64,000 nucleotides of DNA, from UHGV virus genome UHGV-0178594. The stretch is one strand, 5' to 3'. This DNA is from a virus. Positions 10,591 to 64,000 of the stretch are shown in pieces. The notes under the pieces were generated by a model. That model was given only the letters and a program-made list of their open reading frames with translations, did not search any database and was not told the origin of the DNA. The translations under genes were made by a program, and so were the position numbers. The stretch's first letter is position 1, and each line of letters starts with the position of its first letter.

Positions 10591-11368
10591 ATTTGAAGGA
10601 TCACACAGGGTTATGAACAGAGCGGAATTAACGGCAAAAGCCGTCAGTCTGATTGAATCAGCGACACCAATTAGCCGTAGCTTGGCGCAGGCCAATGAGA
10701 TCACAGAGGCGGCTTATCACCTGACACGCGACCAAAAGCGACTGTTGTTTATTGTGGTGGGAAGACTTCGCTATGCTTCTAAGGATGGCGTTCTTGGTTC
10801 AGGTGCCTGTGAGTTGACGGTCAACGAATATGCAGAGATGTATAATTTGCCCTCTGCTGAAGCCAGCAAGGATATTCGTAAAGCTATCTCCGGACTTAGT
10901 GAGAAGAAAGTCACGATATATAACCCTGATGAATCAACCGAATCAGAAGACAGTTATGAGTCTTATCCCTGGATGATTAAGGAGGCTTACTCACCACGCC
11001 GGGGGACTTACATTATTCATCTGAATCCATATCTCATGCCGTTTTTTACTCTGCTTGATAAGAGGTTCACGAGGCTGAATTTTACTGAAGTGTCTCGCCT
11101 GACAAACCCTTATTCTATGCGGCTTTATGAGTCCTTATGCCAGTATAGAAAGGATGATGGGAGCGGCTTCGCTATACTTGGCGTTGAATGGATGCGGGAG
11201 CGTTATGGTCTTCCCAAAAGCTATCAACGGTACGCCGAATTTAAGAGAAGCTTTCTGGCAAAAGCTGTAGCTGAAATCGAAAAAAACACAAAAATGAAAA
11301 TAGTTTTCTCAGAGGTTACAGAAGGTGGCAGAGTTACAAAAATAAAATTCACCTATCAGCAGTCTTAA
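10580..11368 (+). CDS. repA: Iteron-binding plasmid replication initiator
   Basis: 262-aa ORF flanked upstream and downstream by iterons of the same family; true start may be the internal ATG at 10613. Confidence 0.65.
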   Translation: MPSPFEGSHRVMNRAELTAKAVSLIESATPISRSLAQANEITEAAYHLTRDQKRLLFIVVGRLRYASKDGVLGSGACELTVNEYAEMYNLPSAEASKDIRKAISGLSEKKVTIYNPDESTESEDSYESYPWMIKEAYSPRRGTYIIHLNPYLMPFFTLLDKRFTRLNFTEVSRLTNPYSMRLYESLCQYRKDDGSGFAILGVEWMRERYGLPKSYQRYAEFKRSFLAKAVAEIEKNTKMKIVFSEVTEGGRVTKIKFTYQQS

Positions 11369-11660
11369 GGGCAATTTCTACACCTCTCTGTAGGTGTAGG
11401 ATTTGCCCTTAAAGATGGGAGATTGAGGGCAATTCTTACATCATTAGTTAGTTGGTTGGATCTTTAACGGCTAACATTATTTGTAATTTATTGATTAATA
11501 AGGAATGTGTAAAAATCACCCTCAGATGGCATCGTATGCTATAGCTATTTTTATCGCACTACTGTTGAATGTTTTATGGTTGTAACGCGTTGATTTTGTT
11601 GTGATGTGTAAAAAATGCCATCATTGACGTAAACAGCAGGTGTAGATATTGCCCTCAAGT
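11368..11660. repeat. Downstream iteron cluster (copy-control/incompatibility-like), both orientations
   Basis: AGGGCAATTTCTACACCT (11368), AGGTGTAGGATTTGCCCTT (11392), GAGGGCAATTCTTACATCA (11425), AGGTGTAGATATTGCCCTCA (11639). Confidence 0.5.
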
Positions 11661-24497: not shown

Positions 24498-26912
24498 TTA
24501 ATTGAGCGTGGCTATAATGTCGTTAGCTATCATTCGGGTTGATGCTTTACAGGATACAGAGCGACGGGATGGCATAGGATACACCTTGAAGCCATTGCCA
24601 ACGTAAAGTTCGCGAATGTTAGGCGCACCACTGTTTGTTATCACAATTTTCGCTCCGCGTCTGTGGGCATCCACCAGCAGTGACACCAGCCGTTGTTGAT
24701 CTTCAAACCTAAAGCTATGCCCTGAGTAATTTGTAAATCCGGTAGTGTCGGGCAATGGTTCATAGGGGGGATCGCAGAAAATCACATCATCATTCCCTGC
24801 AGCCTCAATTACACCAGCAAAATCGCCGGACACAAATTCCGAATACTTTGAAATATCGTCAGCCAGGAACGCCTCCATTTCCGCGAGAGGGAAGTGGGGG
24901 GATTTCTGCTTTCCATATCCGACGTTGAACTCTCCTTTACGGTTATAGCGAGTGACGCCATTAAAACAATGACGATTGAGATACAGGAACGCCGCTGCAT
25001 GGTGAAGGGAATCATAAGCACCATTGTTGAATGCATTGCGAACATTCAAAAATGCATCAGCAGAGTTGTAATCCTGAAAAAAACGATATGCCAGTGTGAT
25101 AAGAGAATGCCCTTCACGCTGCAATGTCTGATAGAAGTTAATCAGGTCACCGTTAATATCATTAAGCAGGTTGTGGCGAAAACCTGCATTCGTAAATACG
25201 GAACCGCCACCAACGAATGGTTCTATTAACCGCTTGCCGTGTGGCAGATGCTCAAGCACTGTAGGCAACCCTGAGAATTTACCGCCTACCCATTTGAATA
25301 TTGGGCGCTCATATTCATCCGGAGTCCGGAGTTTTCTTGTGTAGGTAATGGTATTTATTGTTTTTTGCTGTTTATCCGCCACGGTCGCAAGAATGCGACA
25401 CCCAATCCATTGCATAACAGGAACTGCCATGCTGTTGCCGATCGCTTTGTAACGCGGTCCGTCAGCAGCGAGCATCGCGGCCTCTTCTTCGCTTAAATCT
25501 GGATAGTGATTGCGAAGATATGCCAGTTCATCTGAATTAACTTTTTTACGCTTTTCCGTCGGGATCAACGTATGCCCATCAGGAAAACCTTGCAGCCTTT
25601 CACATTCGACAGGGGTAAGACGGCGGACAGCTACTTCTGCGTTTCTTACTTCATAGCAAACAGCTGTTGGATTTTTAGCCATTAGAGATGGTGAAGTATT
25701 CTTAGTTGCAGCATGTTGTGTACCGCTCATACGCTCAGGAAAAGCCAATGTAACAAGATGCTCATGGCTTTCTTGCTCACGTGCCCGCAATGTACCATGC
25801 CCTTCTGACCAAAAACCTGCTCCTGTGCTGCTAAAAACGGCAAGGTCAGTGGCATCTTTAAAATCTCTTGCCTTTACTGTCGATGCGGTTTCATCGTCAA
25901 TATATTCCCCAAATGCTGCCATCCTGAAAGCGTTTACGGCTTTCGTCGATTTCATACCGGGTGGCATGTCAGCGTGTAGGCATGGATTTAGGCTTTCGCC
26001 ACTGATTGCAGCGCCATTTGCAATAATGGCGGAAGCGATTTCCTTCTTTTTTCGGCTCGGCGCAATATTCCGGCGCACGCCTTCGAACTCAAAAAGTACC
26101 GTTGCGGGATCGAGGTCTGTTCGAGCACTTGCGACAACAAACACGCGTCGGCGTCGTTGCGCCACTCCGAAGTATTGGGCATCAAGGATTCTCCAGGCCA
26201 CTTTTCGCTGCGGTCCATAAATACAACCACACTGCGGCCACTTTGGAGCATGGCAACCGGTTTTGACATCCCACCGCCAGAACGAGTTACTTTTTCCTGA
26301 TTCAGGTCGATCACCTGGTTCGAATGGCGCATCTTCTCCAGCCAATCCGGCAAGGAAACATCCGAAGGCGTTATCTGCCGATGACAGGACTCCTGGGACA
26401 TTTTCCCAGACGATAACTGTCGGTTTGAGGAAGGACTCAGACCGTTTGTCGTCAATTGCATTTGCAAGCTCCACATACTTCAAAGTTAGCGCGCCGCGTT
26501 CATCATCAAGCCCACCACGTAAGCCCGCGATACTGAATGCCTGACAAGGGGTTCCTCCGACGAGGACATCCGGGGCTTCAATTTTTCCAGCCCGGACCTT
26601 CTTAGCAAGTTTTGTCATGTCGCCAAGGTTGGTAACATGAGGCCAGTGGTGCGCAAGAACGGCAGACGGAAAAGGCTCAATTTCAGCAAACCAAGCCGGA
26701 CGCATACCCAACGGTTCCCAGGCAATGCTTGCGGCTTCAATTCCACTGCAAACCGAACCATATCGAAGATTAATGCTTTGCTTCACCGCCAATGGCCTCC
26801 ACCAGCGAGCTAAACATCGCGGATAATTCGCTTGTGAACAGAATGAAGTCAGCATCAAATCGCTGGGCAACATCTTCACGGTCGATGTCATCGTTCTGGT
26901 CATAGAGATCAT
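24498..26912 (-). CDS. dmt: Bifunctional DNA methyltransferase: N-terminal C5-cytosine MTase fused to C-terminal Dam-like N6-adenine MTase
   Basis: C5 motifs ..YGSVCSGIEAA.., ..GGTPCQAFSIAG.., ..VIVWENVPG..; Dam motifs ..FKWVGGKF.., ..FLYLNRHCFNG.., ..FCDPPY..; 5' end uncertain (143-bp overlap with rdgC as listed). Confidence 0.8.
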   Translation of the reverse strand: MISMTRTMTSTVKMLPSDLMLTSFCSQANYPRCLARWWRPLAVKQSINLRYGSVCSGIEAASIAWEPLGMRPAWFAEIEPFPSAVLAHHWPHVTNLGDMTKLAKKVRAGKIEAPDVLVGGTPCQAFSIAGLRGGLDDERGALTLKYVELANAIDDKRSESFLKPTVIVWENVPGVLSSADNAFGCFLAGLAGEDAPFEPGDRPESGKSNSFWRWDVKTGCHAPKWPQCGCIYGPQRKVAWRILDAQYFGVAQRRRRVFVVASARTDLDPATVLFEFEGVRRNIAPSRKKKEIASAIIANGAAISGESLNPCLHADMPPGMKSTKAVNAFRMAAFGEYIDDETASTVKARDFKDATDLAVFSSTGAGFWSEGHGTLRAREQESHEHLVTLAFPERMSGTQHAATKNTSPSLMAKNPTAVCYEVRNAEVAVRRLTPVECERLQGFPDGHTLIPTEKRKKVNSDELAYLRNHYPDLSEEEAAMLAADGPRYKAIGNSMAVPVMQWIGCRILATVADKQQKTINTITYTRKLRTPDEYERPIFKWVGGKFSGLPTVLEHLPHGKRLIEPFVGGGSVFTNAGFRHNLLNDINGDLINFYQTLQREGHSLITLAYRFFQDYNSADAFLNVRNAFNNGAYDSLHHAAAFLYLNRHCFNGVTRYNRKGEFNVGYGKQKSPHFPLAEMEAFLADDISKYSEFVSGDFAGVIEAAGNDDVIFCDPPYEPLPDTTGFTNYSGHSFRFEDQQRLVSLLVDAHRRGAKIVITNSGAPNIRELYVGNGFKVYPMPSRRSVSCKASTRMIANDIIATLN

Positions 26913-47623: not shown

Positions 47624-48308
47624 TTACCAGGCACTGCGTGAGGCGGCAGTGAAAGCAACGTGGGGAGACTGGGACTCATATAAACCACACCGTGGCGCAC
47701 GTGGTTATGAGGTCCGACTAAGTAGTCAGGCCATTGCGCAACACGTTCTGAAAAACAACGCTGAATTTATTGCTGCCTTTAATCCCAAGGTTGCTTTGGC
47801 ACTACTGGATGAGATCAACGCATTAGAGGAAACGCGTATCAACGATGTTTGCCGTATTGTGGAACTAACAAAACAACTGGAGTCGGCAAAATCAAAACTC
47901 AACGAGCAGCGCGAGCATTACGAGGGAGTAATCGCGGATGGAGGTAAGCGCATAGCAGAACTGGAAAAACAATGCGCTGAATCGGAGCGAAAAGCATTAA
48001 GCAACTTTGAAGAGTGTGCTGCGATGGCTGAACGTATCGAAGAGTTGGAGCAGGCCAACACAAGACAGGACGCCAATATAAACCACCAGCAGGAGGGCGT
48101 GACTCAATCAGTCACCCGATACATATATCACTACAACGCAGTGAATGGTTCTGACTCTATGTCTGGAATTGCGCGGTTAACTTTCATGATCAAATCACAA
48201 TCTGACCTTGACGCACTTAAAAGCGCACTTAGCAAGGTTGGTGGTTTCCGTGCAAAAGCAATTACATCTCTTTCATATCTTGGGTGTGAGGAAGATAGCA
48301 AACGATGA
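47610..48308 (+). CDS. Modular coiled-coil protein, family member 5
   Basis: N-terminus [12 protein letters not shown]; ..[27 protein letters not shown].. nearly identical to a segment in 41475-42197. Confidence 0.4.
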   Translation: MSEINYQALREAAVKATWGDWDSYKPHRGARGYEVRLSSQAIAQHVLKNNAEFIAAFNPKVALALLDEINALEETRINDVCRIVELTKQLESAKSKLNEQREHYEGVIADGGKRIAELEKQCAESERKALSNFEECAAMAERIEELEQANTRQDANINHQQEGVTQSVTRYIYHYNAVNGSDSMSGIARLTFMIKSQSDLDALKSALSKVGGFRAKAITSLSYLGCEEDSKR

Positions 48309-48838
48309 AAGAAGGATTTAAAGATAATTCAGGTGCAGCGCAAAACACTGGAGAAATCATTGAGGCATTTAATGGGGAGGAAATGCCCACTTTATTCAGA
48401 AAAGAATATCCGCGAAAGAGTAGAGCACTAGAATTGCTGTTTATCATTCTGTTTTTCGTGTTGCTGATACCAATAGCCTCAATATTAGTGACTGTTCTAA
48501 TGGGGAAAGTATTTGAACCGTTAGTTGAACTGTATATCGATATAGTGTGGACCCCATTCAGGAAGCTACACAATAAAATTAACCCACATAAGGAAACAGA
48601 TATGGCAACTTTGAAAAAAGAAGATCGTTTTACCAAAAAACAAATCGCCGAGGCAAAAATCCTCGATAACAACGGAACCTACTTCATCAACGGTTCCATT
48701 CTTCCTGTTTATATCAATGAAGATGGAGACACTTACCTTATTGAAGAGTACGAAAAAGGCGAGCCGAGCGAACACCTCATTAAAGATTTGTTCGCGGATG
48801 GCGTTATTGTTGCTGTTAATCCGATTGGCTACAACTAA
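48305..48838 (+). CDS. AT-rich membrane protein
   Basis: 177 aa; TM stretch ALELLFIILFFVLLIPIASILVTVLMG. Confidence 0.3.
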   Translation: MKEGFKDNSGAAQNTGEIIEAFNGEEMPTLFRKEYPRKSRALELLFIILFFVLLIPIASILVTVLMGKVFEPLVELYIDIVWTPFRKLHNKINPHKETDMATLKKEDRFTKKQIAEAKILDNNGTYFINGSILPVYINEDGDTYLIEEYEKGEPSEHLIKDLFADGVIVAVNPIGYN

Positions 48839-48848
48839 AGCATAAATT

Positions 48849-49361
48849 ATGACCAGTATTACCAGAGAACAGGCCAAGAAAATTATTGAAGCTGCCGATG
48901 AGGTTATTAGTGCGCTTGCCGGAACTAACGAGGATGTTCACCCTGGTAGCGATAACATGCTACGTCTGTGGGATGACCTGAATGACCGTTACGCGCCGCC
49001 GGAAGTTGTGCGTGAGCTGGCGCGTATCGTGCTGGCATCGCTGGAAGCGGAGCCTGTAGCGTGGCGATATCGCTACGTGAAAAAAGGCGTTACGGACTCT
49101 CAGGGGGAGCCGTGGGTTGGTGACTGGAAATATGTACCGACAAAAGAGGATTGCAACGACAGGCCGAGCTATGAGATTCAGGCCTTATTCACTGCCCCGC
49201 CAGTCCCGGTGACATCAGAAGGACTGGTTAAAGCCGTGCGTTTCTATGAACAAGTTAAGCGTGAAAATCCGCCAGTCGAAACCGGAGCATGGAAAGACGC
49301 GATTGACTGGGTGCTCAAAGAGGCCTGCCAGGTTGTAAACACTGGCATCAAAGGAGACTGA
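48849..49361 (+). CDS. Hypothetical protein (shares ASLEAEPVA / APPVPVT segments with 49569)
   Basis: 170-aa ORF. Confidence 0.35.
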   Translation: MTSITREQAKKIIEAADEVISALAGTNEDVHPGSDNMLRLWDDLNDRYAPPEVVRELARIVLASLEAEPVAWRYRYVKKGVTDSQGEPWVGDWKYVPTKEDCNDRPSYEIQALFTAPPVPVTSEGLVKAVRFYEQVKRENPPVETGAWKDAIDWVLKEACQVVNTGIKGD

Positions 49362-49362
49362 T

Positions 49363-49572
49363 ATGGCTATTGCCGCAAGTTACACCATGCATCTCTATTG
49401 TGATTGCCTCCAGTGTACAGATGGCAAATATAAGTCGCCAGACTTCGGTGAGTATATCGGTACGTCATGGGCTGGCTGTGCAAAAGAGGCGCGCAAAGAT
49501 GGCTGGCGAATAAGCAAAGACAAAACGCGTGCTTTTGCGCCCGGGCATAAAGTTTTGAGGATTAACAAATGA
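49363..49572 (+). CDS. Small Cys-rich protein
   Basis: 69 aa; ..YCDCLQCTDGKYKSPDFG.. Confidence 0.3.
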   Translation: MAIAASYTMHLYCDCLQCTDGKYKSPDFGEYIGTSWAGCAKEARKDGWRISKDKTRAFAPGHKVLRINK

Positions 49573-50633
49573 CCACTTTAACCGACAAAGAACTGATTAA
49601 AGAAATCAAAGAGCGAATCGGCAGCCTGGACGTGCGAGACAATATTGAGCGCCGTGCTTATGAAATTGCTCTGGCATCGCTGGAGGCAGAGCCAGTGGCA
49701 AAAATTATAGCTCACTACCCATTAGGAATTGACGTAGGCAAACAAAAGTTCGTACAGGCCATTGGAGAGCTTCCTGACTTTGGAGGATATCTATTCGCCG
49801 CTCCACCTGTGCCGGTAACACAGGCTAATGTCGCGCAAGCAATTGAAAATCTTAAGCAGAAGTTAGTGGAATGCAATCGCTATAACTACTGCGCAGATGC
49901 AGTTAAAGATGTTGAGGATGCCAGCCGCGTCTTGGCACTCCAAAATCAAAATATGTCAGCACCGATAACGCAGGAGGCCATTGAAAACGCAATTGAATAT
50001 ATCCGCAGTATTGCTTTTCACATCGATGAAGACGATTACCACGGCAAGCATATTGCGTATTTCATGCGACAAGCACTGGTCTGGCTGGAAGGGCATTCAT
50101 GCAGCGACGACAGACAGGATAAAGCCGAGAATCAACCAGTACGCGGTAACCAGGCTGCCGAATCCAATCGCGGTAATGAGTGGACCGGCAATCCTGATAT
50201 TGATAACGCCATCATCATGCTTGACCGCATAGATACGGCGGAAAGTTACGATGATGACCGTATTGAGGCTGTTAAGGCTGTTTTGCGTAGACTGGCAGGC
50301 AACTCTCCGGTAATTCCGGATGGTTTATCCACGGTATGCGCTGAGGCTTATCAGGTTGTAGGAGTTATGGCAGATGCGCTTGGTGTATTCGGTGATGCAG
50401 CAGTACAGAAAGTTCTGGATAACCTGTCACAGCAAAAACTTGTTCACAGAGATGTGCTGCCGTTCTCGCTTCCGGTAACTCCGGATGGTTGGGTTATGGT
50501 TCCTAAACAGGTAACGCCGGAAATCAGCAACGCGATAAACGTTGTGGGTCAACGCTGTACATGCGGAAATTGCTCTCAGCGGTTGTGGGATTTATTACTC
50601 GACGCCACACAGCAAGGAGTTAACCGTGGCTAA
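49569..50633 (+). CDS. Hypothetical protein
   Basis: 354-aa ORF. Confidence 0.35.
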   Translation: MTTLTDKELIKEIKERIGSLDVRDNIERRAYEIALASLEAEPVAKIIAHYPLGIDVGKQKFVQAIGELPDFGGYLFAAPPVPVTQANVAQAIENLKQKLVECNRYNYCADAVKDVEDASRVLALQNQNMSAPITQEAIENAIEYIRSIAFHIDEDDYHGKHIAYFMRQALVWLEGHSCSDDRQDKAENQPVRGNQAAESNRGNEWTGNPDIDNAIIMLDRIDTAESYDDDRIEAVKAVLRRLAGNSPVIPDGLSTVCAEAYQVVGVMADALGVFGDAAVQKVLDNLSQQKLVHRDVLPFSLPVTPDGWVMVPKQVTPEISNAINVVGQRCTCGNCSQRLWDLLLDATQQGVNRG

Positions 50634-50809
50634 CCTGCAACTTATCCTCAAAGGTGAAAAGATTTGAGGATTCGCATCATTAATAACACCGACAAGCATC
50701 CGGATGATTATTTGGATTGCTCGTTAGCAGAGCGCGTGGAATTGATATAAGAGAATCTCCGCGCATCGGCAACACACAGCTAAATATGTTCGCAATAAAG
50801 GGTAAATCA

Positions 50810-51211
50810 ATGGCTAAATTTCGGAGAACTATTATTTTTCTGGCAATGTTATCTGCCTGCCATTTATCACATGCATCGGTTATTGTTGCAACCGCCGCAA
50901 CAACGGCAGCAATTAGCGCCTCAGCCGCAAGCGAGCAGGAGCAACGCACTGCAATCAATGCATCCGCAAATACTACCACTGTAGCAGTCACGCAAGATAA
51001 GCCAAATATAGGCTTTGTTACTTGCGGAAAACGGTATGGAGAGACGGTCGGTTCTCTTGGTTGCGCAGTGTGGCATGACGAACGAGCAGAAATTCCGTGG
51101 AAATCATGGCCTGGTTACATTCTTGGCGAAAAGATACCCACCAGCTATGAAGTAAATGCTATTTCGTTCGACCAATATAACAGAGTCGCAACGGTCTACT
51201 TTTCTTATTAA
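50810..51211 (+). CDS. Lipoprotein candidate
   Basis: From ATG 50810: MAKFRRTIIFLAMLSAC.. (lipobox-like LSAC). Confidence 0.35.
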   Translation: MAKFRRTIIFLAMLSACHLSHASVIVATAATTAAISASAASEQEQRTAINASANTTTVAVTQDKPNIGFVTCGKRYGETVGSLGCAVWHDERAEIPWKSWPGYILGEKIPTSYEVNAISFDQYNRVATVYFSY

Positions 51212-51217
51212 CACGGA

Positions 51218-51517
51218 GTGATTATGTGGCGCGGTAATAATCATGGCAGAAGCCATATGATACTTACCGAATATAAGCTAGACCACAAAACCAATAAATC
51301 ACGCTCAGTATATTTGCTCCGGCACAATAGCCGCGTAAGGAATACCGTGCTGGAGCAATATCTGACCGTTGAAATGGATAATTTCGGGAATTTCAAGCCA
51401 ACAATATCGCTTGATGATTTCCCTCGTGGTTTAAGCGAAAGAGAAGCAATGCTGAAATTAGCAGAATGGCTACAAAGATTGAGCATTGTTATTGAAGATA
51501 ACTGGAGTCAACCATAA
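51218..51517 (+). CDS. Hypothetical protein
   Basis: 99-aa ORF. Confidence 0.3.
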   Translation: MIMWRGNNHGRSHMILTEYKLDHKTNKSRSVYLLRHNSRVRNTVLEQYLTVEMDNFGNFKPTISLDDFPRGLSEREAMLKLAEWLQRLSIVIEDNWSQP

Positions 51518-51693
51518 TGAAAAACAGAAAGAAATTTTGGATTACTTTTTTGTTTGTATGCCTTTGCGGTTCATTTGTTTTGTTGGCTGGTGGTGTTGAA
51601 TGGGGAACGATGGGATGTGGAGTTGGGAGTGGCTTTACGCTTCTTGCAGCCTGGGTTATCGCTGGCGTTCAGTCTGGAGGAGGGTATTACTAA
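51517..51693 (+). CDS. Small membrane protein (58 aa)
   Basis: TAATG overlap with the previous gene; MKNRKKFWITFLFVCLCGSFVLLAGG.. hand-translated. Confidence 0.25.
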   Translation: MKNRKKFWITFLFVCLCGSFVLLAGGVEWGTMGCGVGSGFTLLAAWVIAGVQSGGGYY

Positions 51694-51713
51694 GTAATTT
51701 TATTACCCCCTTC

Positions 51714-51765
51714 ATAACGGATATCACTCTCGTGATAACGGATATTCCAATTTTGATAACGGATA
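51714..51765. promoter_or_regulatory. Three direct repeats ATAACGGATA spaced 21 bp upstream of the 51773 gene
   Basis: Copies at 51714, 51735, 51756. Confidence 0.45.
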
Positions 51766-51772
51766 AAGCCAA

Positions 51773-51982
51773 ATGAGGCATTTTTTAAGGCTGGCATTTG
51801 TTCTGGCGCTATTTGCTCCTCCGGCTGCGATGGCTGGAGAACAGCAGCACTGTGTAACTGAATCAGAGAATCTTGTAATAGTCACTCAATGCGATGACGG
51901 AACGGTGACCGTGGTTAATGTACGAGATAACCGTGTAGCCGTGTGTCGTAAAGGCGAATCATGCAAGGAGATAAAGCTATGA
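51773..51982 (+). CDS. Small secreted Cys-containing protein
   Basis: Signal-peptide-like MRHFLRLAFVLALFAPPAAMA. Confidence 0.3.
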   Translation: MRHFLRLAFVLALFAPPAAMAGEQQHCVTESENLVIVTQCDDGTVTVVNVRDNRVAVCRKGESCKEIKL

Positions 51983-52743
51983 CCAAAATCACTAAAGAGC
52001 GTATATCAGAGATTATTTCCCGTATCGAAATGTATGGTCACGGTGCTGGATATACGGCAGATGAAGTATTGGCGCTTGCCAAAATAGCGTTAGCGCCTTG
52101 CAAGGATGGTAACGGAATGACACTGATTGACTTTTTAGTGAAGGAATTATCTAAGGGAGCTGGATGGCCTGATGGAAAAGATTTTTGCTATCTACCCATT
52201 CCGCTGGCAGGTTGTAGTTGGGCTACGGTTCGTTTTGATACGCGCCATAAAAATTACCAATCATCAAAGAATTATTCCTTTGATGGCATTATTTGCGATA
52301 TCAGTGACCTTGATCGCAGTGCGTTTACATCGGTTGTCACTCGTGAACAATATGAAGCAGCTCGCATAGCGTCTCAGAAAGTCGAGTTCAATGGTGATGA
52401 ACTTGAAAGTAAGGCTTACAAGTTAGATTTTGAGCAATGGCTGGAACAGCAACGCGGGAAAATCGATGTGGACTGCGGTTGTGTGTCTGCGGAAACATTC
52501 ATGCACTGGTTGCGGGTAGCTTATGAGGCTGGCAACCATCCGGATTTTCCGGATAGTTCCCAACAATCGCCCAAGAAAAGCGTAAAAACCTCTCTGGAAA
52601 GAGGCTATCTTGAGGCCGCATTAAAGATTAAGCCGGGCCATACGCTAGGCGTCATTGATGCCATGTTGGTTCATGAAATGGCTAAGGCTTTATTGCCACT
52701 GGTAGCAGATCAACATGAGGCGAGTCATGCCAACGAAAGCTGA
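51961..52743 (+). CDS. Hypothetical protein
   Basis: 260-aa ORF. Confidence 0.3.
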   Translation: MQGDKAMTKITKERISEIISRIEMYGHGAGYTADEVLALAKIALAPCKDGNGMTLIDFLVKELSKGAGWPDGKDFCYLPIPLAGCSWATVRFDTRHKNYQSSKNYSFDGIICDISDLDRSAFTSVVTREQYEAARIASQKVEFNGDELESKAYKLDFEQWLEQQRGKIDVDCGCVSAETFMHWLRVAYEAGNHPDFPDSSQQSPKKSVKTSLERGYLEAALKIKPGHTLGVIDAMLVHEMAKALLPLVADQHEASHANES

Positions 52744-53011
52744 ACTACAGACGCGTGTAGAGGAACTTGAAAAAGAGAACACTGGCCTCAAAAAAATGCT
52801 GGCACGGGCAGAAAGGGAGTTATCTGGCAAACTTCTGCCAGAAGAACTGCCACCAGCAGATATACCAAAGCGAGTGTCTCGGTGGATGAAGTCTTTTTGT
52901 TTGCCGTGGGAGGCGTTTTGGTGCTACGACCATCGCAGATGGTGTGATGAACTTGATAGCAGTTTTCCCTACTTTGCGGAAGGTAACACCTGCCCTCAAT
53001 GCAGGGGATAG
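52715..53011 (+). CDS. Hypothetical protein with coiled coil and Cys-rich C-terminus
   Basis: 98-aa ORF. Confidence 0.3.
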   Translation: MRRVMPTKAELQTRVEELEKENTGLKKMLARAERELSGKLLPEELPPADIPKRVSRWMKSFCLPWEAFWCYDHRRWCDELDSSFPYFAEGNTCPQCRG

Positions 53012-53346
53012 CATTTAACGAAATCGATCACCCTATCCTGAACTTCGGAAAGAAGGTATTTTTCACGAGCCAGGACGTCAGGATATTGACGTTCTGGCCT
53101 TACCAGATGCCGGAGCTTCCCATTAAGCAGAATGGCCTCAGAAAACACTTTTACGCTGTGCTTTATCCCCTCTGTTTCACTTTTCAGCGTCAAAATAAAG
53201 CGCAATTGCTTGTTAGCCTGATTCAGATTCAATACCCGAATTTGCAGTTCGTCTATGCTATTTCGCAATGGGATTGATGCCACCACACTGGTGCAGTCTC
53301 TGATTGTCTGAATTGAACGGCTAACATTGAGAACGTTATTGTGCAT
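52996..53346 (-). CDS. Paralog of the lxr-position protein, encoded on the opposite strand
   Basis: 116 aa; shares ..RS.QTIR..T.VV.S.P.. pattern and length with 53654-54004. Confidence 0.3.
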   Translation of the reverse strand: MHNNVLNVSRSIQTIRDCTSVVASIPLRNSIDELQIRVLNLNQANKQLRFILTLKSETEGIKHSVKVFSEAILLNGKLRHLVRPERQYPDVLAREKYLLSEVQDRVIDFVKCYPLH

Positions 53347-53378
53347 GTGCCTGATCCACTAACTCCGGGAGGTTTCTT

Positions 53379-53651
53379 GTGTCAGATCGAAATATAGCAG
53401 CTAAAAGCAAGGAAGAGCGAGACAAGGTGAACGTAGACCTTGCCGCCAGCGGCGTTGCTTACAAAGAACGGCTGAATATACCTGTGATTGCAGAGCAGGT
53501 GGCCCGTGAGCAACCGGAAAACCTGCGCGCCTATTTCATGGAACGGCTACGGCACTACCGGCTGTTAAGCCTCCAGTTGCCAAAAGGGAGCGATCCGGTG
53601 TATCAGAACGAGGATGCGAAAAAAAATAACGGCAAGATGGGGGAGACTTAA
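53379..53651 (+). CDS. hot: DNA polymerase III theta-subunit homologue
   Basis: ..[43 protein letters not shown].. closely matches remembered E. coli HolE. Confidence 0.8.
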
Positions 53652-53653
53652 AC

Positions 53654-54004
53654 ATGCTTAACTATCACGACAACACGCGTTCTATGCAGACAATCCGCAC
53701 CAATACAGCGGTGGTCGATAGCTTTCCTGTACATACTCAAGGCCGTGAAGATACCGTGGAAGTGCGACGCATGTTGTGTCGCCGGTCACCGGGCCACCAG
53801 CACTTCATCGTAACGTTTAAAAGCGATGTAGAGCGCGCCGAGAAAATCTCTAACTCCACATCTCTGGTTAAGCCGTTAGCGGAGGTTATTGTGCGCAACA
53901 ATAAGGCGCGCTTTGTCCTTGAGGAGCATCATTCTGATTTTAATGAAAAAATCGAGTCAAGCATTTTGCAATATATGAATGGCACGTTCACGCCACCAAT
54001 GTGA
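53654..54004 (+). CDS. Hypothetical protein at the position of P1 lxr (between hot and humD)
   Basis: 116-aa ORF; assignment by position only. Confidence 0.35.
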   Translation: MLNYHDNTRSMQTIRTNTAVVDSFPVHTQGREDTVEVRRMLCRRSPGHQHFIVTFKSDVERAEKISNSTSLVKPLAEVIVRNNKARFVLEEHHSDFNEKIESSILQYMNGTFTPPM

Positions 54005-54067
54005 TTAGCCCCCAGCGTGGCGCGCGTACAAACCCCGCTTTCACAAACTATGCCTTTTCAATGTATA

Positions 54068-54083
54068 CTGTATGAATAAACAG
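54068..54083. promoter_or_regulatory. LexA box CTGTATGAATAAACAG upstream of humD
   Basis: Exact CTGT-N8-ACAG SOS-box architecture 21 bp upstream of the humD ATG. Confidence 0.6.
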
Positions 54084-54103
54084 TATTATTGAGGTAAAAC
54101 GCT

Positions 54104-54493
54104 ATGGGCTTCCCTTCTCCTGCGGCGGATTATGCAGAGAGCCGTATTTCTCTTGATCAGCAACTAATCAGACATCCTTCTGCGACCTACTTCATGCGGG
54201 CGGCAGACAGCCATCACCGTGAGGGAATATTGCAAGGTGCTTTGCTGGTGGTTGATTCCTCACTTACTCCGGTTGATGGTTCACTGCTTATATGCGCTAT
54301 GGAGGGTGAATATCGCATAAAGAGATACAGGAAGTATCCGCGCCAGCACCTGGAGGATTTAAGCACCGGGAAGAAAGAGGCGTTACCAGTGGATGACGAT
54401 GGATACACGGGCAGTAATGCTGTTTTTGGTGTGATCACTCATGTCATCAATGATGCCCGAAGTGGGGAATTTGATGATTGTCCGGTTATTTAA
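54104..54493 (+). CDS. humD: UmuD'-like protein
   Basis: MGFPSPAADY..LIRHPSATYF.. and ..VFGVITHV.. collinear with the C-terminal part of UmuD, lacking the cleavable N-terminus. Confidence 0.85.
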   Translation: MGFPSPAADYAESRISLDQQLIRHPSATYFMRAADSHHREGILQGALLVVDSSLTPVDGSLLICAMEGEYRIKRYRKYPRQHLEDLSTGKKEALPVDDDGYTGSNAVFGVITHVINDARSGEFDDCPVI

Positions 54494-58094: not shown

Positions 58095-58117
58095 TGTTAG
58101 AAAATTAATTTATGAAT
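58095..58117. promoter_or_regulatory. Operator-like element TGTTAGAAAATTAATTTATGAAT overlapping the dre stop codon
   Basis: 19 of 23 positions identical, in one run, to the element at 39196. Confidence 0.4.
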
Positions 58118-59138
58118 CCATCAGGCGACTATTTGCACCAACGGATGCCCCGCTACGGCGCAAATATCGCATAAGTGTTTCGGGCTTTTTCCATGTGCCT
58201 TCCTGCATGATCTCGACCATTGACACCTGTTTCTCAGCCATATCAATTGCCGCACCAACACGCGCACTATGGCCTGTCCACGTCCGGTATCTTCCTTTGT
58301 TCGGCGTGGCATCTCGTTTGTTCAGCAACCCCCAGGCATCGCTGAATATTTTCTCCATTGCAGGTGCAGTAAGGGGAGTTGTCGTGATTCTGGCCTTATT
58401 ACTGCGGTGTATTGGCGGGAATAGCACCGCGTCCGGATGTTGACGAAGTCCGGACACCTCCAGCCAGTCGTTCAGTACGGCGGTAGTGCAACGAGAAAGC
58501 ACCTTATCAAGTCCGGCGGCGGTCGTGATGGTCTTCGTGTGCGAAATATGCAGCGTTACAGTGTCACCTGTTTGGTCCAGATCTCCGACGCGGATGCGCG
58601 AGATTTCTGACATACGCATCAGGGTATTGTATGCCACGAAGAGAAACGCCCGATTGCGCAGGTCCACCAGCCGCTCGGAACGGGACAGCAATACGTCGAG
58701 CAATTTCAGATCATCCCACCGCAACGGTATAGCCTGGCCTGTTCGCTCGCCTTTTTCCGTTGCCGCTTCGCGCCGGATGCGCCGCATGGCCAGAGACACA
58801 CTTTTATCGTCCGACAGCGGCGGGAGGCCACATTGCGAAAGCAGCATGTTAAGCATGGCATAGTGCTTATCAATGGTGGTCGAAGCCAGATCGGCCTCAT
58901 GCAACTGGAGAAGATACTCGCGGGCCATTTCCGACGTAATCGGGAACCAGGGGCGCTGGCGCGAGTTACACCACCGCGCCCAGGAATGAAACACCAGACG
59001 GAGATCACGAAGTGTATTTGGGGCATAAGCTCCCTGGTCGTTCATGAACTGCATAAAGTTTTTTGCAGCTTCCTGGTATTCGGTGCCAATATCGCGCAGA
59101 AAACCACCAGAACCGCCGGAGATAACTAGTTCACCCAT
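58110..59138 (-). CDS. dre: Cre-family tyrosine recombinase (Dre-type)
   Basis: Collinear with remembered Cre (..WFP..DVR.YLL.LQ..GLA..TI..H...LNML.., ..RNLAF..AYNTL.R..EI.RIRV.D.., ..WSGHSARVGAA.DMA..GVS..EIMQ.G.W..); adjacent exact rox site. Confidence 0.85.
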   Translation of the reverse strand: MGELVISGGSGGFLRDIGTEYQEAAKNFMQFMNDQGAYAPNTLRDLRLVFHSWARWCNSRQRPWFPITSEMAREYLLQLHEADLASTTIDKHYAMLNMLLSQCGLPPLSDDKSVSLAMRRIRREAATEKGERTGQAIPLRWDDLKLLDVLLSRSERLVDLRNRAFLFVAYNTLMRMSEISRIRVGDLDQTGDTVTLHISHTKTITTAAGLDKVLSRCTTAVLNDWLEVSGLRQHPDAVLFPPIHRSNKARITTTPLTAPAMEKIFSDAWGLLNKRDATPNKGRYRTWTGHSARVGAAIDMAEKQVSMVEIMQEGTWKKPETLMRYLRRSGASVGANSRLMDS

Positions 59139-59290: not shown

Positions 59291-59322
59291 TAACTTTAAA
59301 TAATGCCAATTATTTAAAGTTA
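59291..59322. other. rox: rox recombination site TAACTTTAAATAATGCCAATTATTTAAAGTTA (14-bp inverted arms, 4-bp spacer)
   Basis: Perfect inverted arms read directly; sequence matches the rox site as I remember it from the Dre/rox system. Confidence 0.85.
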
Positions 59323-60593: not shown

Positions 60594-62102
60594 TTAAATG
60601 TCAATATCAGGAATATCCACTTCTGCCAACACCTGATCGCGGAATGTTGCGAGTTCTGCGCCAATGTCTTCATTAGCAGGCACGTAATCCACCAGCATAG
60701 TGAAGCAGTAGGTATCCCATCTGTCCGGTGACTTGATGTTTAACTTCTGCCGCATGTGCTCCTTGCGCATCATCGCTACCTTCCCTTCTTCGTTAAGCAT
60801 ATACGGGATTTTTGATGCCTGATCTGCGGTTTTGGGGTCACTATCGATACGCATACGCCCGGATTTAATGGCATCCCCTGCCATAATATTGGCGTAAGCA
60901 CGCTGATTGACAAAGCGTTCTCTGTCTCTTAGCGCAAACATAGGCTTACCCCAACGGATGCGAACGGGATTAGCACCACGGCGGACAAGCTGCGCACACG
61001 TATCTGAACCAAAGCCATCAGCATCCACAGCAATGGTGATGTTCGGGTATTTATCAGGAGTGCATTCGTTATAGATAAAGTCGGCAAAAGCCAACGGGTC
61101 CATAGTGCCTGGCATCTCCAGTATCTTAAAGTTCACAACGCGTCGTTTCTCACGATAACCGGATACTTTGCATATATTGAGCACCGATTTATCGCGACCA
61201 TTACCGACGTCAGCGGTCGCTACCCAGCCCCAATCTTTCTCCAGCAACACTTTACGCCGTGCGGCGCGGTCGCACTCATCACGACCAAGCAAATACCCGT
61301 TAATTGCACGCGGGAACTGGCCCAGCACCTTAACCATGTACTCCAGCGAATCCCTGCCGCCGTACTCCAGCAATTTCTCACGAATAAAGCTCGGTTCAAC
61401 GAATGGTGATTCTTCAGAGTTAAGGACTATTGCCGTCCAGACACCTTCCGGATTGCCTTCTGCCTTTGCCCTTGAATGGTGAGATTCATAAAAGTAACCG
61501 CTTGGACGCGTAGGCTGGGAAAGCATGAGCATACGGTTATCTTTCTGCGTTAACGCCCCCGTCATGACGTTAATCGCCTTATCGGATATGCCCGATGCTT
61601 CATCAAGAATTAGCAGTAAATGCTCCGCGTGCTCCCCCGCCAGTGCCTCTTCGTTACCGAGTCGATAACCTTTACAGAGCACTTCCCATATCCCTTTACG
61701 GGAACGCTCATAAAACATGGTGTCAGACAGGACAAAATAGGTCTGTAACCAGCCGTGGCGCTTAACAGCATTCGCCCAAAACTGTTTCACGTATTTGAAT
61801 ACGCCTGTTTTTACCTGGCCTATTTTGTTCGCAACAATAATGACGCGGGCGTCGGGGAACAGGATCATAAAAATTAGTAGCAACATCGCGGTAAGGGACG
61901 ACTTACCCGTTCCGTGTCCGGACGTAACGGTCGTCCTGCTTCCCGTCTCCTGCACTGACTGAATGATCTGCTGCTGCTGGTGGGAGGGGAACATCCCAAA
62001 AATATCGACAACCGCCTGGGTAAAGTTGTATCGATACCTGATAACCATATCGCGCCAACGTGGATCACTGGTGACGCACTTAATCTTACGACCACCAGCC
62101 AT
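60594..62102 (-). CDS. Terminase large subunit (PacB-like)
   Basis: P-loop ..TSGHGTGKSS.. near the N-terminus, 502 aa, immediately downstream of the small-subunit gene. Confidence 0.6.
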   Translation of the reverse strand: MAGGRKIKCVTSDPRWRDMVIRYRYNFTQAVVDIFGMFPSHQQQQIIQSVQETGSRTTVTSGHGTGKSSLTAMLLLIFMILFPDARVIIVANKIGQVKTGVFKYVKQFWANAVKRHGWLQTYFVLSDTMFYERSRKGIWEVLCKGYRLGNEEALAGEHAEHLLLILDEASGISDKAINVMTGALTQKDNRMLMLSQPTRPSGYFYESHHSRAKAEGNPEGVWTAIVLNSEESPFVEPSFIREKLLEYGGRDSLEYMVKVLGQFPRAINGYLLGRDECDRAARRKVLLEKDWGWVATADVGNGRDKSVLNICKVSGYREKRRVVNFKILEMPGTMDPLAFADFIYNECTPDKYPNITIAVDADGFGSDTCAQLVRRGANPVRIRWGKPMFALRDRERFVNQRAYANIMAGDAIKSGRMRIDSDPKTADQASKIPYMLNEEGKVAMMRKEHMRQKLNIKSPDRWDTYCFTMLVDYVPANEDIGAELATFRDQVLAEVDIPDIDI

Positions 62103-63466
62103 TAGTCATCCTCCGGCTGGTCTATCGCAATCTCGTCATCTACAGCATCAAAACCGGTATCCCCCGCGTCATAATCACCGTAGATATCAGCCGTGGCGTA
62201 AGGGTCTATATTCAGGTCTTCATCATTGGCCTCAAATTCACCGGCTTTACGTTCTCCGTTCCGGTCGTAATCCCCCATCCCAAGCCTATCAACGATTTTC
62301 GCTACTTCAGCCCGGCGTTGTGCAAGCCATTGTGGGAGTCCAGCTTGTTGCTCGGCAAACTGCTTCGCCTCTTTATCCAGTTGCTCATCATCAACATCGT
62401 TAACGTCAGAAACCGGAGGCTCCAGAAGTGAGATCGCTTTTGCCGCTCGTGCCGCCAGGATAGCCGGGACACTGACGCCCTGCCGCTCGATATATTCAGC
62501 AACACCTATATCATCCAGCTCCTCGCGCTCACGCATACGTATAGCGGCGGCGATAACCCTGGCGGCGCGTGCGTCAGCGCCAATGCGATACTCAATCTCC
62601 TTGCCACGCTGCTCGGCTTGTAGGCGGGCAATCGCCAGTTTTTCTCTGGCCTCAGCCTCCCTGAATGCCTGCTGACGCGCGCCCTGCGCAAGTTTTTCAT
62701 CCCCCTGGCGTAGCTTCTGCTCGTTCTGATAGATGGCTGCCAGCCTGGTGATAAAGTCATTCATGTAGTAGGCCGCATCGCTGATCAGTCCGAGAAGACG
62801 CTGCCCTGGGTGCATCCCCTCTGGCTGTGTATCACCGAGGGCGTCAATCTCTTCCTGTAGTCGCTCCGCTTCCTGGTCAACGATAGCCTGATACTGAATT
62901 GCTCGTTCCTGCGCCATCTGAATCGCAAGTCGTAAATGTTCAGTCGCGCCGTTCTTCATCATCTCACGGGCGACGTTGGTGGCAGGCAAAGTGGTGCTTT
63001 GAGCTGATGAATCAGGGATCATTTGCAATGATCCCTTGTTTCGTTGGGCTTTATCGCTGCTTTTAGGGATCATTTCTCCCATTTCATCACAAAATGATCC
63101 CTTCACATCCTTGTGTATCTTGTTGTTATTACTTGGCTTTTCTTTGTGATCCGCATTTTGTTTTTGCGGCATGGCGCGGAACCGTCCACCAGCCAAAGAT
63201 TTGTCAGTTTTTGTAAATTCTGTGCTTTTATTAGCCTTTTTTTGCTCTTTTTTTGAGCCGGTGGCGCTGCTTTTTGCGCGCTGTTTTGTACTTTTCCCGG
63301 TAGCCTTAGCTTTCGCCTTAACCTCATTTTTTTTCATATTGAGATGCTTTCTGGCGGTGTTAAAGCTGAGGTCATGCTGCTCGCAATATTCTTTTATGGT
63401 GATCCCGGTTTCTTCTCTTAACTCCAGGAACTTAGCTCGATGCGCTTCCCAGTTAATTAACGTCAT
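62102..63466 (-). CDS. Terminase small subunit / pac-recognition protein (PacA-like)
   Basis: N-terminal HTH-like ..ITIKEYCEQHDLSFNTARKHL.., basic linker, GATC-rich pac-like cluster inside the 5' part of the gene. Confidence 0.5.
   Translation of the reverse strand: MTLINWEAHRAKFLELREETGITIKEYCEQHDLSFNTARKHLNMKKNEVKAKAKATGKSTKQRAKSSATGSKKEQKKANKSTEFTKTDKSLAGGRFRAMPQKQNADHKEKPSNNNKIHKDVKGSFCDEMGEMIPKSSDKAQRNKGSLQMIPDSSAQSTTLPATNVAREMMKNGATEHLRLAIQMAQERAIQYQAIVDQEAERLQEEIDALGDTQPEGMHPGQRLLGLISDAAYYMNDFITRLAAIYQNEQKLRQGDEKLAQGARQQAFREAEAREKLAIARLQAEQRGKEIEYRIGADARAARVIAAAIRMREREELDDIGVAEYIERQGVSVPAILAARAAKAISLLEPPVSDVNDVDDEQLDKEAKQFAEQQAGLPQWLAQRRAEVAKIVDRLGMGDYDRNGERKAGEFEANDEDLNIDPYATADIYGDYDAGDTGFDAVDDEIAIDQPEDD
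63014..63102. other. pac-like cluster: four GGGATCATT / AATGATCCC elements with GATC sites at 63017, 63030, 63068, 63096
   Basis: Read directly; resembles the Dam-sensitive hexamer organisation of the P1 pac site. Confidence 0.4.
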
Positions 63467-63855
63467 AGGGAAGCCTCACGTTTTTTCACAGCGGCGTTCC
63501 ATAGCTGGTTAGTCATCGCCACCAACTGACGCTGCTCCTTTCGTAATTGAGCTTCTATCTTTCGGTTGGTGTTTTTCACCAACAGCCGACCGAATTCAGG
63601 AGTGCGCCCGCGCACCTTGAACTGGTATCCATTCAGGCCATGTAACCAATATTTCCGGGGGTATACGCGGTCGTCTATTTCGCAAATGGCACGACTGGAA
63701 CGAACAAAAAAACGTATGATGTTATTTACGTTTACGCGCGACACATGAAGGTGAGGATATTGTGCTTTTGCACGGCTGGTGATTTCGGTGACCGTCAGAT
63801 AGCAGTTAGCCCTGATCATGATATCCGCTATTTCGGCGCTACTGATTTGCTCCAT
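63463..63855 (-). CDS. Hypothetical protein upstream of pacA (position of P1 lpa)
   Basis: 130-aa ORF; positional inference only. Confidence 0.25.
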   Translation of the reverse strand: MEQISSAEIADIMIRANCYLTVTEITSRAKAQYPHLHVSRVNVNNIIRFFVRSSRAICEIDDRVYPRKYWLHGLNGYQFKVRGRTPEFGRLLVKNTNRKIEAQLRKEQRQLVAMTNQLWNAAVKKREASL

Positions 63856-63934
63856 TTATCCCCCGGATAGAAAAAGACCGAGGGGATGATAATCAGCTTG
63901 TTAATACTGAGAAGACTGTCAAAAACACGATCTA

Positions 63935-63963
63935 TTAGAAAATTAATATCAATTTGCTAACAC
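63935..63963. promoter_or_regulatory. Operator-like site TTAGAAAATTAATATCAATTTGCTAACAC upstream of the pac operon
   Basis: Member of the recurring motif family. Confidence 0.4.
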
Positions 63964-64000
63964 TACCAGCGGGATAAACGAACAACATGCTTAACTTTTG

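What the first reader, a model, noticed from the sequence alone, without database searches (positions are those of the whole stretch)
63014..63102. GATC-containing inverted hexamer cluster inside the small-terminase gene: candidate pac site
Four copies of GGGATCATT / AATGATCCC form two inverted pairs within 90 bp in the 5' third of the pacA-like gene. In P1 the pac site lies inside pacA and consists of Dam-methylatable hexamers, so this is the likely packaging initiation site.
Basis: partly seen in the sequence, partly recalled or inferred. Interest (0 to 1): 0.4.

Follow-up and report, generated by a model that had tools for sequence, protein, structure and literature searches.

The report
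Candidate packaging site in D6-like phage-plasmid
Four copies of a 10-base GATC-containing motif inside the small-terminase gene of a D6-like phage-plasmid are very probably where the phage starts packing its DNA; this is expected from its relative P1, but the motif and layout differ.

Summary
Exact 10-mers AGGGATCATT/AATGATCCCT lie at 63014-23(+), 63027-36(-), 63065-74(+) and 63093-102(-). They fall at nt 365-453 of a 1365-nt pacA gene on the minus strand. No dinucleotide shuffle gave four copies of a 9-mer within 100 bp (0 of 200).

The window is a D6-like phage-plasmid with lpa-pacA-pacB-c1-rox-dre. It also encodes a Dmt-like Dam methylase.

The pac reading is supported by comparison, not by experiment:
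- Between this element and phage D6, the linker is 50% identical outside the motifs and 90% inside them.
- Nearly every P1/D6-family lineage surveyed has GATC clusters at nt 140-480 of pacA, in all three codon phases.
- One motif aligns with a hexamer of the right-hand (HEX3) arm of the mapped P1 pac site. The amino acid before that GATC varies, yet the GATC is kept.

Differences from P1:
- The hexamer is TGATCC, not TGATCA/G, and occurs in both orientations.
- There is no left (HEX4-like) cluster.
- No IHF consensus site was found.
- The PacA recognition helix changes in the same clade.

The cleavage point is unknown and may lie outside 63014-63102. I rate this a variant of a known kind, of moderate interest.

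The parts
62102..63466 (-). pacA (small terminase / pacase A subunit), 454 aa. It contains the candidate pac site in the stretch coding for a predicted disordered linker (residues about 58-170).
   Evidence: ORF. It is 77% nt and 74% aa identical to phage D6 pacA and about 20% aa identical to P1 PacA, pairwise E=5e-8. PHROG 1711 terminase at 7e-167, and the N-terminus matches small-terminase PHROGs. In the AF2 model, residues 6-57 are confident helices and 58-170 have pLDDT below 50.
63093..63102 (-). Element 1 in gene order: AGGGATCATT on the coding strand, gene nt 365-374, GATC at nt 368.
   Evidence: In D6 the amino acid changes (Gly to Arg) but the GATC is kept.
63065..63074 (-). Element 2: AATGATCCCT on the coding strand, gene nt 393-402, GATC at nt 396. 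This is the 'anchor' GATC that aligns with the last hexamer of the P1 HEX3 arm.
   Evidence: In the PacA family alignment this is a near-invariant Ile column. In 11 of 12 lineages the codons are ATG, AAG or GTG followed by ATC, so the GATC is kept while the preceding residue varies (M, K or V). The P1 counterpart is the GATC at pacA nt 348.
63027..63036 (-). Element 3: AGGGATCATT on the coding strand, gene nt 431-440, GATC at nt 434.
   Evidence: D6 keeps GGGATC with a synonymous change just outside it.
63014..63023 (-). Element 4: AATGATCCCT on the coding strand, gene nt 444-453, GATC at nt 447.
   Evidence: It is identical in D6 and L027.
63147..63152 (+). Fifth TGATCC hexamer (GATC at gene nt 316). 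It is conserved in D6 and is probably part of the same site.
63200..63217 (-). Conserved island TTTACAAAAACTGACAAA (gene nt 250-267) in the otherwise variable linker. It aligns with left-arm hexamers of other lineages and may be a degenerate left-arm remnant. This reading is speculative.
60594..62102 (-). pacB (large terminase / pacase B subunit), 502 aa.
   Evidence: 56% aa identity to P1 PacB and 92% to D6. PHROG 2 terminase large subunit.
63463..63855 (-). lpa (late promoter activator), overlapping the pacA start.
   Evidence: Pfam BPP1_LPA at 2.5e-50. Same gene order as D6 and P1.
59291..59322 (+). rox site, an exact match to the D6 rox. It lies 3.7 kb from the repeats on the pacB side, as lox lies 4 kb from pac in P1.
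   Evidence: P1 distances. A Dre-like recombinase ORF is at 58110-59138 (-).
24498..26912 (-). Dmt-like fused C5-cytosine and Dam-family N6-adenine methyltransferase (804 aa). It is a phage-borne source of GATC methylation.
   Evidence: tblastn shows 81% identity to the D6 orf63 adenine methylase. TIGR00571 dam scores 221 bits against a cut-off of 115, and PF02086 and PF00145 also match.

Best explanation
The four 10-bp elements, very likely together with the TGATCC at 63147-63152, are the recognition elements of this phage-plasmid's packaging (pac) site.

Inferred mechanism, by homology with P1:
1. Late in infection the N-terminal helix-turn-helix of PacA binds the GATC-containing elements on concatemeric DNA.
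2. PacA recruits PacB, and the pacase cuts nearby.
3. Headful packaging runs towards pacB, c1 and rox. The rox site then falls in the terminal redundancy, where Dre can recircularise the genome.
4. Adenine methylation of the GATCs, by host Dam or the element's own Dmt-like enzyme, probably gates cleavage as it does in P1.

Shown here: the repeats, their conservation at DNA level, their positional homology with the right-hand (HEX3) arm of P1 pac, and the adjacent pacase genes, methylase and rox.

Inferred only: binding, cleavage, its position, packaging direction and methylation control.

Compared with P1 the site is remodelled. It uses an asymmetric TGATCC(C) element in both orientations, and no left (HEX4-like) cluster or IHF consensus was found.
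For: (1) The repeat cluster is far beyond chance.

(2) Context is a D6-like lpa-pacA-pacB-c1-rox-dre module.

(3) Footprint. Over gene nt 300-470, window versus D6 identity is 36 of 40 inside the elements against 66 of 131 outside them (Fisher p=3e-6). The elements were defined from the window alone. In D6 a Gly-to-Arg change keeps the GATC.

(4) Family survey of about 150 loci fetched through PacB. Nearly every lineage surveyed has GATC clusters within pacA nt 140-480. Among 13 representatives the counts were 3-9 against 1.0-1.7 expected, with P from 1e-5 to 0.15. The GATCs occur in all three codon phases.

(5) Anchor. Element 2 aligns with the P1 HEX3 hexamer at nt 348. In 11 of 12 lineages the codons are xxG-ATC, with M, K or V before the Ile.

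(6) P1 pac is documented as 161 bp inside pacA, with 7 TGATCA/G hexamers (HEX4 and HEX3), an IHF site and Dam control (PMC10028697). Cleavage is annotated at pacA nt 276-285.

(7) The elements lie in codons for a predicted disordered linker, where little protein-level constraint is expected.

(8) A Dam-family methylase is encoded on the element.

(9) The hexamer type tracks the PacA recognition helix. NTARKHL or STGRKKL goes with TGATCC; NTARRxL goes with TGATCA.

(10) The window has no other place with at least 4 GATC in 140 bp. In D6 and in the closest plasmid the only others lie in the sit gene, near repL and at the plasmid origin.
Against: - There is no experimental evidence for this element or, as far as I could find, for D6. 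The D6 GenBank records annotate rox and cix sites but no pac.
- The P1 layout of 4 + 3 hexamers around a central cleavage region of roughly 90 bp is not present. The D6/window clade lacks the left cluster that the other lineages have.
- No IHF consensus with at most 1 mismatch lies in 62900-63300, whereas P1's own site has 1 mismatch.
- GATC enrichment alone is modest in this one sequence (P about 0.01).
- The conserved Ile/'MIP' and the invariant Gly145 show that some protein-level constraint overlaps elements 2 and 3.
- The helix-hexamer correlation rests on a single clade-level switch.
Confidence: 0.7

Rival explanations
1. Vestigial or auxiliary site. The repeats descend from the right arm of an ancestral P1-type pac and may still bind PacA. 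In the D6 clade, however, packaging starts elsewhere or is sequence-independent, because the left arm and the IHF site have been lost.
For: The left (HEX4-like) cluster is absent only in the D6/window clade. No IHF consensus was found. The D6 records carry no pac annotation.
Against: The elements are held at 90% identity while the surrounding linker has drifted to 50%, which argues for current selection. The right cluster has expanded rather than decayed: 4-5 elements against 1-4 in other lineages. No alternative hexamer cluster exists in the window, and the extra GATC clusters in D6 and the closest plasmid lie in the sit gene, near repL and at the plasmid origin.
Confidence: 0.1
2. Dam/SeqA-dependent or other regulatory site. 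The clustered GATCs or inverted repeats bind a regulator, or SeqA, and control pacA-pacB expression or replication timing rather than packaging.
For: GATC clusters elsewhere serve replication control. The closest plasmid has 6 GATC in 90 bp upstream of its RepB gene. Inverted repeats are typical operators.
Against: The position is homologous to a mapped pac arm in P1. The elements resemble neither the annotated P1 late-promoter -22 box ATGTGACTT nor the P1 C1 operator consensus as I recall it. They sit 365 nt inside the gene, with no promoter-like site nearby.
Confidence: 0.08
3. RNA-level structure. The two inverted pairs form hairpins in the pacA mRNA, or form a terminator for antisense transcription on the + strand.
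For: The sense RNA folds into two hairpins, at -35.5 kcal/mol and z=-3.2. The + strand palindrome 63014-63036 with its T-rich tail meets a simple terminator pattern.
Against: Hairpins follow automatically from any inverted repeat. The D6 differences are not compensatory: A.C and T.T mismatches appear, and only GGGATC/GATCCC is kept. Other lineages carry direct 12-bp-period repeats with no hairpin potential. The terminator-like count, 3 found against 2.0 +/- 1.5 expected, is not above the shuffles, and the T-run reflects the A-rich Lys/Asn codons. Rfam gave no significant match.
Confidence: 0.05
4. Coding by-product. The DNA repeats merely reflect a duplicated peptide (KGS-x-...-MIP twice) in PacA, with no function at DNA level.
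For: The elements are read in frame as K-G-S-(F/L) and (E/Q)-M-I-P, each twice. Ile133 and Gly145 are conserved in the family.
Against: The two halves of each pair are reverse complements that encode unrelated peptides, which a peptide duplication does not explain. GATC is kept through non-synonymous change (G to R in D6; M, K or V before the Ile) and at synonymous positions (always ATC, and AAG chosen after AAA). GATCs occur in all three phases across lineages. The region is predicted disordered.
Confidence: 0.04

Closest known systems
Bacteriophage P1 pac site (161-162 bp inside pacA; HEX4 and HEX3 arms of TGATCA/G hexamers, IHF site, Dam-regulated cleavage by PacA/PacB)
   Same: It lies inside pacA, just after the helix-turn-helix-coding part, and has several GATC-containing elements with an ATGATC core. 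One element aligns with the last HEX3 hexamer. PacA and PacB are adjacent, a Dmt-like Dam methylase is on the genome, and a Cre/Dre-type recombination site lies about 4 kb further on (PMC10028697).
   Different: The hexamer is TGATCC within a 10-bp asymmetric element, used in both orientations as two inverted pairs. There is no 4-hexamer left arm and no central spacer of roughly 90 bp. No IHF consensus was found. PacA is only about 20% identical to P1 PacA and has a different recognition helix, NTARKHL against NTARRYL.
The same region of phage D6 pacA (MF356679 nt about 3715-3850) and of about 100 D6-like plasmids in PLSDB
   Same: GATC positions are identical (gene nt 316, 368, 396, 434, 447). 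Two of the four 10-mers are identical and two are 8 of 10 identical. Gene order and the rox site are the same.
   Different: pacA is only 77% identical at nucleotide level, and in D6 the inverted symmetry is weaker (GGAGATCATT, AGGGATCTTC). The D6 records do not annotate a pac site. I could not read the D6 genome paper (Gilcrease & Casjens 2018), so I cannot say whether it discusses one.
pac sites inside small-terminase genes of other headful phages (P22 gene 3, SPP1 gene 1, Sf6); named from general knowledge, not tested here
   Same: The general principle is shared: the small terminase recognises a site within its own gene, and packaging proceeds in one direction from there.
   Different: Those sites are not built from Dam-methylatable repeats, and their proteins are unrelated in sequence to PacA.

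Membership tests
P1-type pac site | Located inside the pacA (small terminase) reading frame, downstream of the N-terminal DNA-binding domain | tested here: met
   The elements are at gene nt 365-453 (316-453 with the fifth GATC). P1 cleavage is at nt 276-285 and its hexamers at nt 195-348. The elements fall in the linker after the confident N-terminal helices.
P1-type pac site | Multiple copies of a GATC-containing hexamer (TGATCA/G) | tested here: inconclusive
   There are five GATC elements in 137 bp with a shared ATGATC/GGATCA core, but the hexamer is TGATCC, not TGATCA/G. This counts as met for 'GATC repeats' and not met for the exact P1 hexamer.
P1-type pac site | Bipartite layout: 4 hexamers, a central cleavage region of roughly 90 bp, then 3 hexamers | tested here: not met
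   GATCs are at nt 316, 368, 396, 434 and 447, with gaps of 52, 28, 38 and 13 bp. The left cluster at nt 150-270, seen in all other lineages, is absent.
P1-type pac site | IHF-binding site next to the cleavage region | tested here: not met
   No WATCARNNNNTTR match with at most 1 mismatch lies in 62900-63300. The annotated P1 site has 1 mismatch. A consensus scan is a weak test.
P1-type pac site | Positional homology with the mapped P1 site | tested here: met
   Element 2 falls in the alignment column of the last P1 HEX3 hexamer, and the GATC is kept in 11 of 12 lineages. This depends on an alignment in a low-complexity region.
P1-type pac site | Cognate PacA and PacB pacase subunits encoded together | tested here: met
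   pacA is at 63466-62102 and pacB at 62102-60594. PacB is 56% identical to P1 PacB.
P1-type pac site | A source of GATC adenine methylation (host Dam and/or phage Dmt) | tested here: met
   A Dam-family domain is present in the ORF at 24498-26912 (-): TIGR00571 scores 221 bits against a cut-off of 115. GATC specificity of this enzyme is inferred from family membership.
P1-type pac site | Cleaved by the pacase in vivo or in vitro; cleavage depends on full methylation; virion ends map there | not testable with these tools
   This needs virion DNA sequencing or cleavage assays.

The most novel reading that the evidence does not exclude
The D6 clade has rewired the P1-type packaging signal.
- The palindromic TGATCA hexamer has become an asymmetric 10-bp element (AATGATCCCT) used as inverted pairs.
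- The HEX4 arm and the IHF site have been lost.
- The PacA recognition helix changed in step, from RR(E/Y) to KH or KK.

If so, D6-type and P1-type pacases would be mutually orthogonal and would assemble differently on DNA, possibly cutting at a different position relative to the repeats.
Probability: 0.4. Interest if true: 0.5.

Novelty: new variant of a known kind. Interest (0 to 1): 0.3.

Why it matters
D6-like phage-plasmids are common in E. coli and Salmonella: 110 PLSDB plasmids carry this pacA type.

Knowing their packaging origin would:
- say where headful packaging, and therefore transduction gradients, begin;
- allow correct genome start conventions;
- give a short cassette for building D6-based phagemids that P1 pacase should not recognise.

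The family-wide pattern also offers a natural series for studying how a small terminase and its DNA signal co-evolve inside the same gene. The concept itself (pac inside pacA, Dam-methylatable repeats) has been known from P1 since the 1980s, so a specialist would not be surprised.

Tried and rejected
- IHF consensus scan of 62900-63300: no hit with at most 1 mismatch.
- Rfam search of 62000-64000: only a chance-level miRNA hit, 20 bits, E=0.37.
- Promoter and terminator scan: the palindrome meets a simple terminator pattern on the antisense strand, but counts are not above the shuffles.
- Comparison with the P1 late-promoter -22 box: no resemblance.
- RNA folding: hairpins form as expected from any inverted repeat, but the D6 changes are not compensatory.
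- Pfam and NCBIfam: no family for PacA. A PDB profile search found nothing.
A single-sequence model gave only the N-terminal helices and coiled coils with confidence, and I ran no fold search on it.
- The genome-contig scan gave one locus only.
- Literature. The D6 genome paper (PMC5800970) and the P1 genome paper (PMC523184) are not held. Five searches found no statement on a D6 pac site (papers read).
- Contig ends as a proxy for termini. Only one contig (L049) starts inside pacA, directly after the GATC at nt 316. That is a single coincidence and I did not use it as evidence.
- GATC density alone: rejected as sufficient proof, because a 4-GATC cluster is not rare by chance at 3.4 GATC per kb.

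Full report
**What is there.** Window 63014-63102 holds four exact copies of a 10-bp unit. On the + strand these read AGGGATCATT at 63014-23 and 63065-74, and its reverse complement AATGATCCCT at 63027-36 and 63093-102. They form two inverted pairs, with spacers of 3 and 18 bp. Only one further exact 9-mer copy exists in the 64 kb, at 1480. In 200 dinucleotide-preserving shuffles no 9-mer reached four non-overlapping copies within 100 bp; the maximum was 3, in 9 shuffles. A fifth TGATCC hexamer lies at 63147-63152. With it, this is the only place in the window holding at least 4 GATC in 140 bp. GATC counts alone are only modestly unusual, at Poisson P of about 0.01. The significance comes from the long exact repeat.

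**Context.** The repeats lie on the coding strand of a minus-strand ORF, 63466-62102 (454 aa), at gene nt 365-453.
- This ORF is PacA: 77% nt and 74% aa identical to phage D6 pacA, 99.6% identical to an E. coli plasmid (NZ_CP085065), and PHROG terminase 1711 at E=7e-167. It is only about 20% identical to P1 PacA.
- It is preceded by lpa (Pfam BPP1_LPA) and followed by pacB, which is 56% identical to P1 PacB.
- Next come a c1-like gene on the other strand, an exact D6 rox site at 59291-59322 and a Dre-like recombinase.
- The window is therefore a D6-like phage-plasmid with the P1/D6 packaging-immunity module.
- It also encodes an 804-aa fused C5-cytosine and Dam-family methyltransferase at 24498-26912 (-), like P1 Dmt.

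**Evidence that the DNA, not the peptide, is under selection.**
- Footprint against D6. In the linker (gene nt 300-470), identity to D6 is 66 of 131 outside the four 10-mers and 36 of 40 inside them (Fisher p=3e-6). The elements were defined from the window alone, so this is independent evidence (alignments).
- GATC survives amino-acid change. In D6, element 1 has a Gly-to-Arg change that keeps the GATC. Element 3 has a synonymous change just outside the GATC.
- Unrelated peptides. The two halves of each pair encode K-G-S and M-I-P, so a peptide duplication cannot explain the inverted symmetry.
- Disordered region. A single-sequence AlphaFold model gives confident helices for residues 6-57, with the NTARKHL motif starting the third helix. 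Residues 58-170 have pLDDT below 50. The elements therefore sit in codons for a probably disordered linker.

**Family survey.** I fetched about 150 loci through PacB: 80 from IMG/VR, 80 from metagenomes and one from genomes.
- Nearly every lineage surveyed, from 100% down to about 51% PacB identity, has GATC clusters within pacA nt 140-480. Among 13 representatives the counts were 3-9 sites against 1.0-1.7 expected, with P from 1e-5 to 0.15. The most distant lineages have few.
- The GATCs occur in all three codon phases: GAT-CAx (Asp-His or Asp-Gln) in P1 and the L034 group, and GGA-TCA or ATG-ATC in the window.
- Most lineages have two clusters. P1 has 4 + 3, the L034 group has six at a 12-bp period plus two, and L027 has 3 + 5.

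**Link to the mapped P1 site.** P1 pac is 161 bp inside pacA. It has seven TGATCA/G hexamers (HEX4 and HEX3 arms), an IHF site and Dam-dependent cleavage (PMC10028697). Cleavage is annotated at pacA nt 276-285, and the hexamers are at nt 195-229 and 325-348. In the 12-lineage PacA alignment, element 2 of the window (GATC at nt 396, window 63068-63071) falls in a near-invariant Ile column that also holds the last P1 HEX3 hexamer. In 11 of 12 lineages the codons are ATG, AAG or GTG followed by ATC. The preceding residue varies (M, K or V) but always ends in G. The Ile codon is always ATC, and AAG is used directly after AAA. The window's four repeats therefore correspond to the right-hand arm of a P1-type pac site. 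This rests on an alignment in a low-complexity region.

**How it differs from P1.**
- The D6/window clade lacks the left cluster at nt 150-270. Only the GATC at nt 316 remains, plus one at nt 63 inside the conserved G-I-T codons.
- A conserved island, TTTACAAAAACTGACAAA at nt 250-267, aligns with left-arm hexamers of other lineages. It may be a degenerate remnant, but that is speculative.
- The hexamer is TGATCC within an asymmetric 10-mer used in both orientations. This type is shared by the window, D6, L027 and L055 lineages. All other lineages with clear clusters use TGATCA.
- The switch coincides with a change in the PacA recognition helix: NTARKHL or STGRKKL against NTARRxL. It is a single clade-level event, so it is suggestive only.
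- No IHF consensus with at most 1 mismatch lies in 62900-63300, whereas P1's own site has one mismatch.

**Most likely mechanism.** PacA binds the elements through its N-terminal helix-turn-helix, recruits PacB, and the DNA is cut nearby. Headful packaging then runs towards pacB and rox. GATC methylation by host Dam or the Dmt-like enzyme probably gates cleavage, as in P1. Binding, cleavage position, direction and methylation control are all inferred by homology. The P1 packaging direction towards lox is from my own knowledge of the P1 literature, not from a tool result. Alternatively it could lie near 63052, between the two pairs.

**Rivals.**
- RNA hairpins form (z=-3.2), but the D6 changes are not compensatory, and other lineages have direct repeats.
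- An antisense terminator-like pattern at 63014-63036 is not above the shuffles.
- Rfam gave no significant match.
- The elements do not resemble the P1 late-promoter box.
- No competing hexamer cluster exists in the window. The extra GATC clusters in D6 and the closest plasmid lie in the sit gene, near repL and at the plasmid origin.
- The most serious rival is that the site is vestigial and D6-type phages start packaging differently. The strong conservation of the elements argues against this.

**Novelty.** The concept is P1's. The D6 GenBank records annotate rox and cix sites but no pac. I found no statement on a D6-type pac site in the held literature. The D6 genome paper is not held, so prior description cannot be excluded. 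I rate this a new variant of a known kind, of moderate-to-low interest. The decisive test is straightforward: map virion termini by sequencing, as PhageTerm does for P1 (PMC5557969).

Noticed in passing
window 10470-10590: Five copies, at a period of about 22 bp (one 32-bp gap), of an iteron-like repeat: AGGTGTAAGATTTGCCCTCA three times exact plus two degenerate copies. They lie in a stretch (10284-11604) that does not match the otherwise 98-99% identical plasmid NZ_CP085065. That plasmid instead has a 6-GATC cluster upstream of its RepB gene. This looks like a swapped plasmid-origin region.
   Followed up: partly
window 51714-51765: Three copies of GATAACGGATA at 21-bp spacing, upstream of an ORF at 51961-52743. 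They sit inside a 47941-54484 stretch that replaces the type I hsdRSM genes of NZ_CP085065.
   Followed up: no
window 24498-26912 (-): An 804-aa fused C5-cytosine and Dam-family N6-adenine methyltransferase, like P1 Dmt. In phage D6 the two halves are separate genes (orf64 and orf63).
   Followed up: partly
window 59291-59322 and 58110-59138 (-): An exact copy of the 32-bp D6 rox site, next to a 342-aa Dre-like tyrosine recombinase.
   Followed up: yes
L049 1-20 (IMGVR_UViG_2537562191_000021): This D6-type contig from an isolate genome begins directly after the GATC at pacA nt 316 (first bases ATGAAAATAATGC). It may be coincidence, or it may reflect a real DNA end or a library artefact at GATC.
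   Followed up: no
window 63200-63217 (pacA nt 250-267): TTTACAAAAACTGACAAA is conserved across the window, D6, L025 and L027 in an otherwise highly variable linker. It aligns with left-arm TGATCA hexamers of other lineages.
   Followed up: partly
PacA residues 36-42 (window 63341-63361) versus the elements; loci L004-L168: Lineages whose PacA helix reads NTARKHL or STGRKKL use TGATCC elements. Lineages with NTARRxL use TGATCA. This is one clade-level switch of protein and site together.
   Followed up: partly
window 1-540: Self-similar matches at offsets of about 120 bp (blastn against the related plasmid aligns window 1-410 at three registers). This indicates a 120-bp tandem repeat, probably inside the long phage tail protein gene annotated at the matching position of that plasmid.
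   Followed up: no
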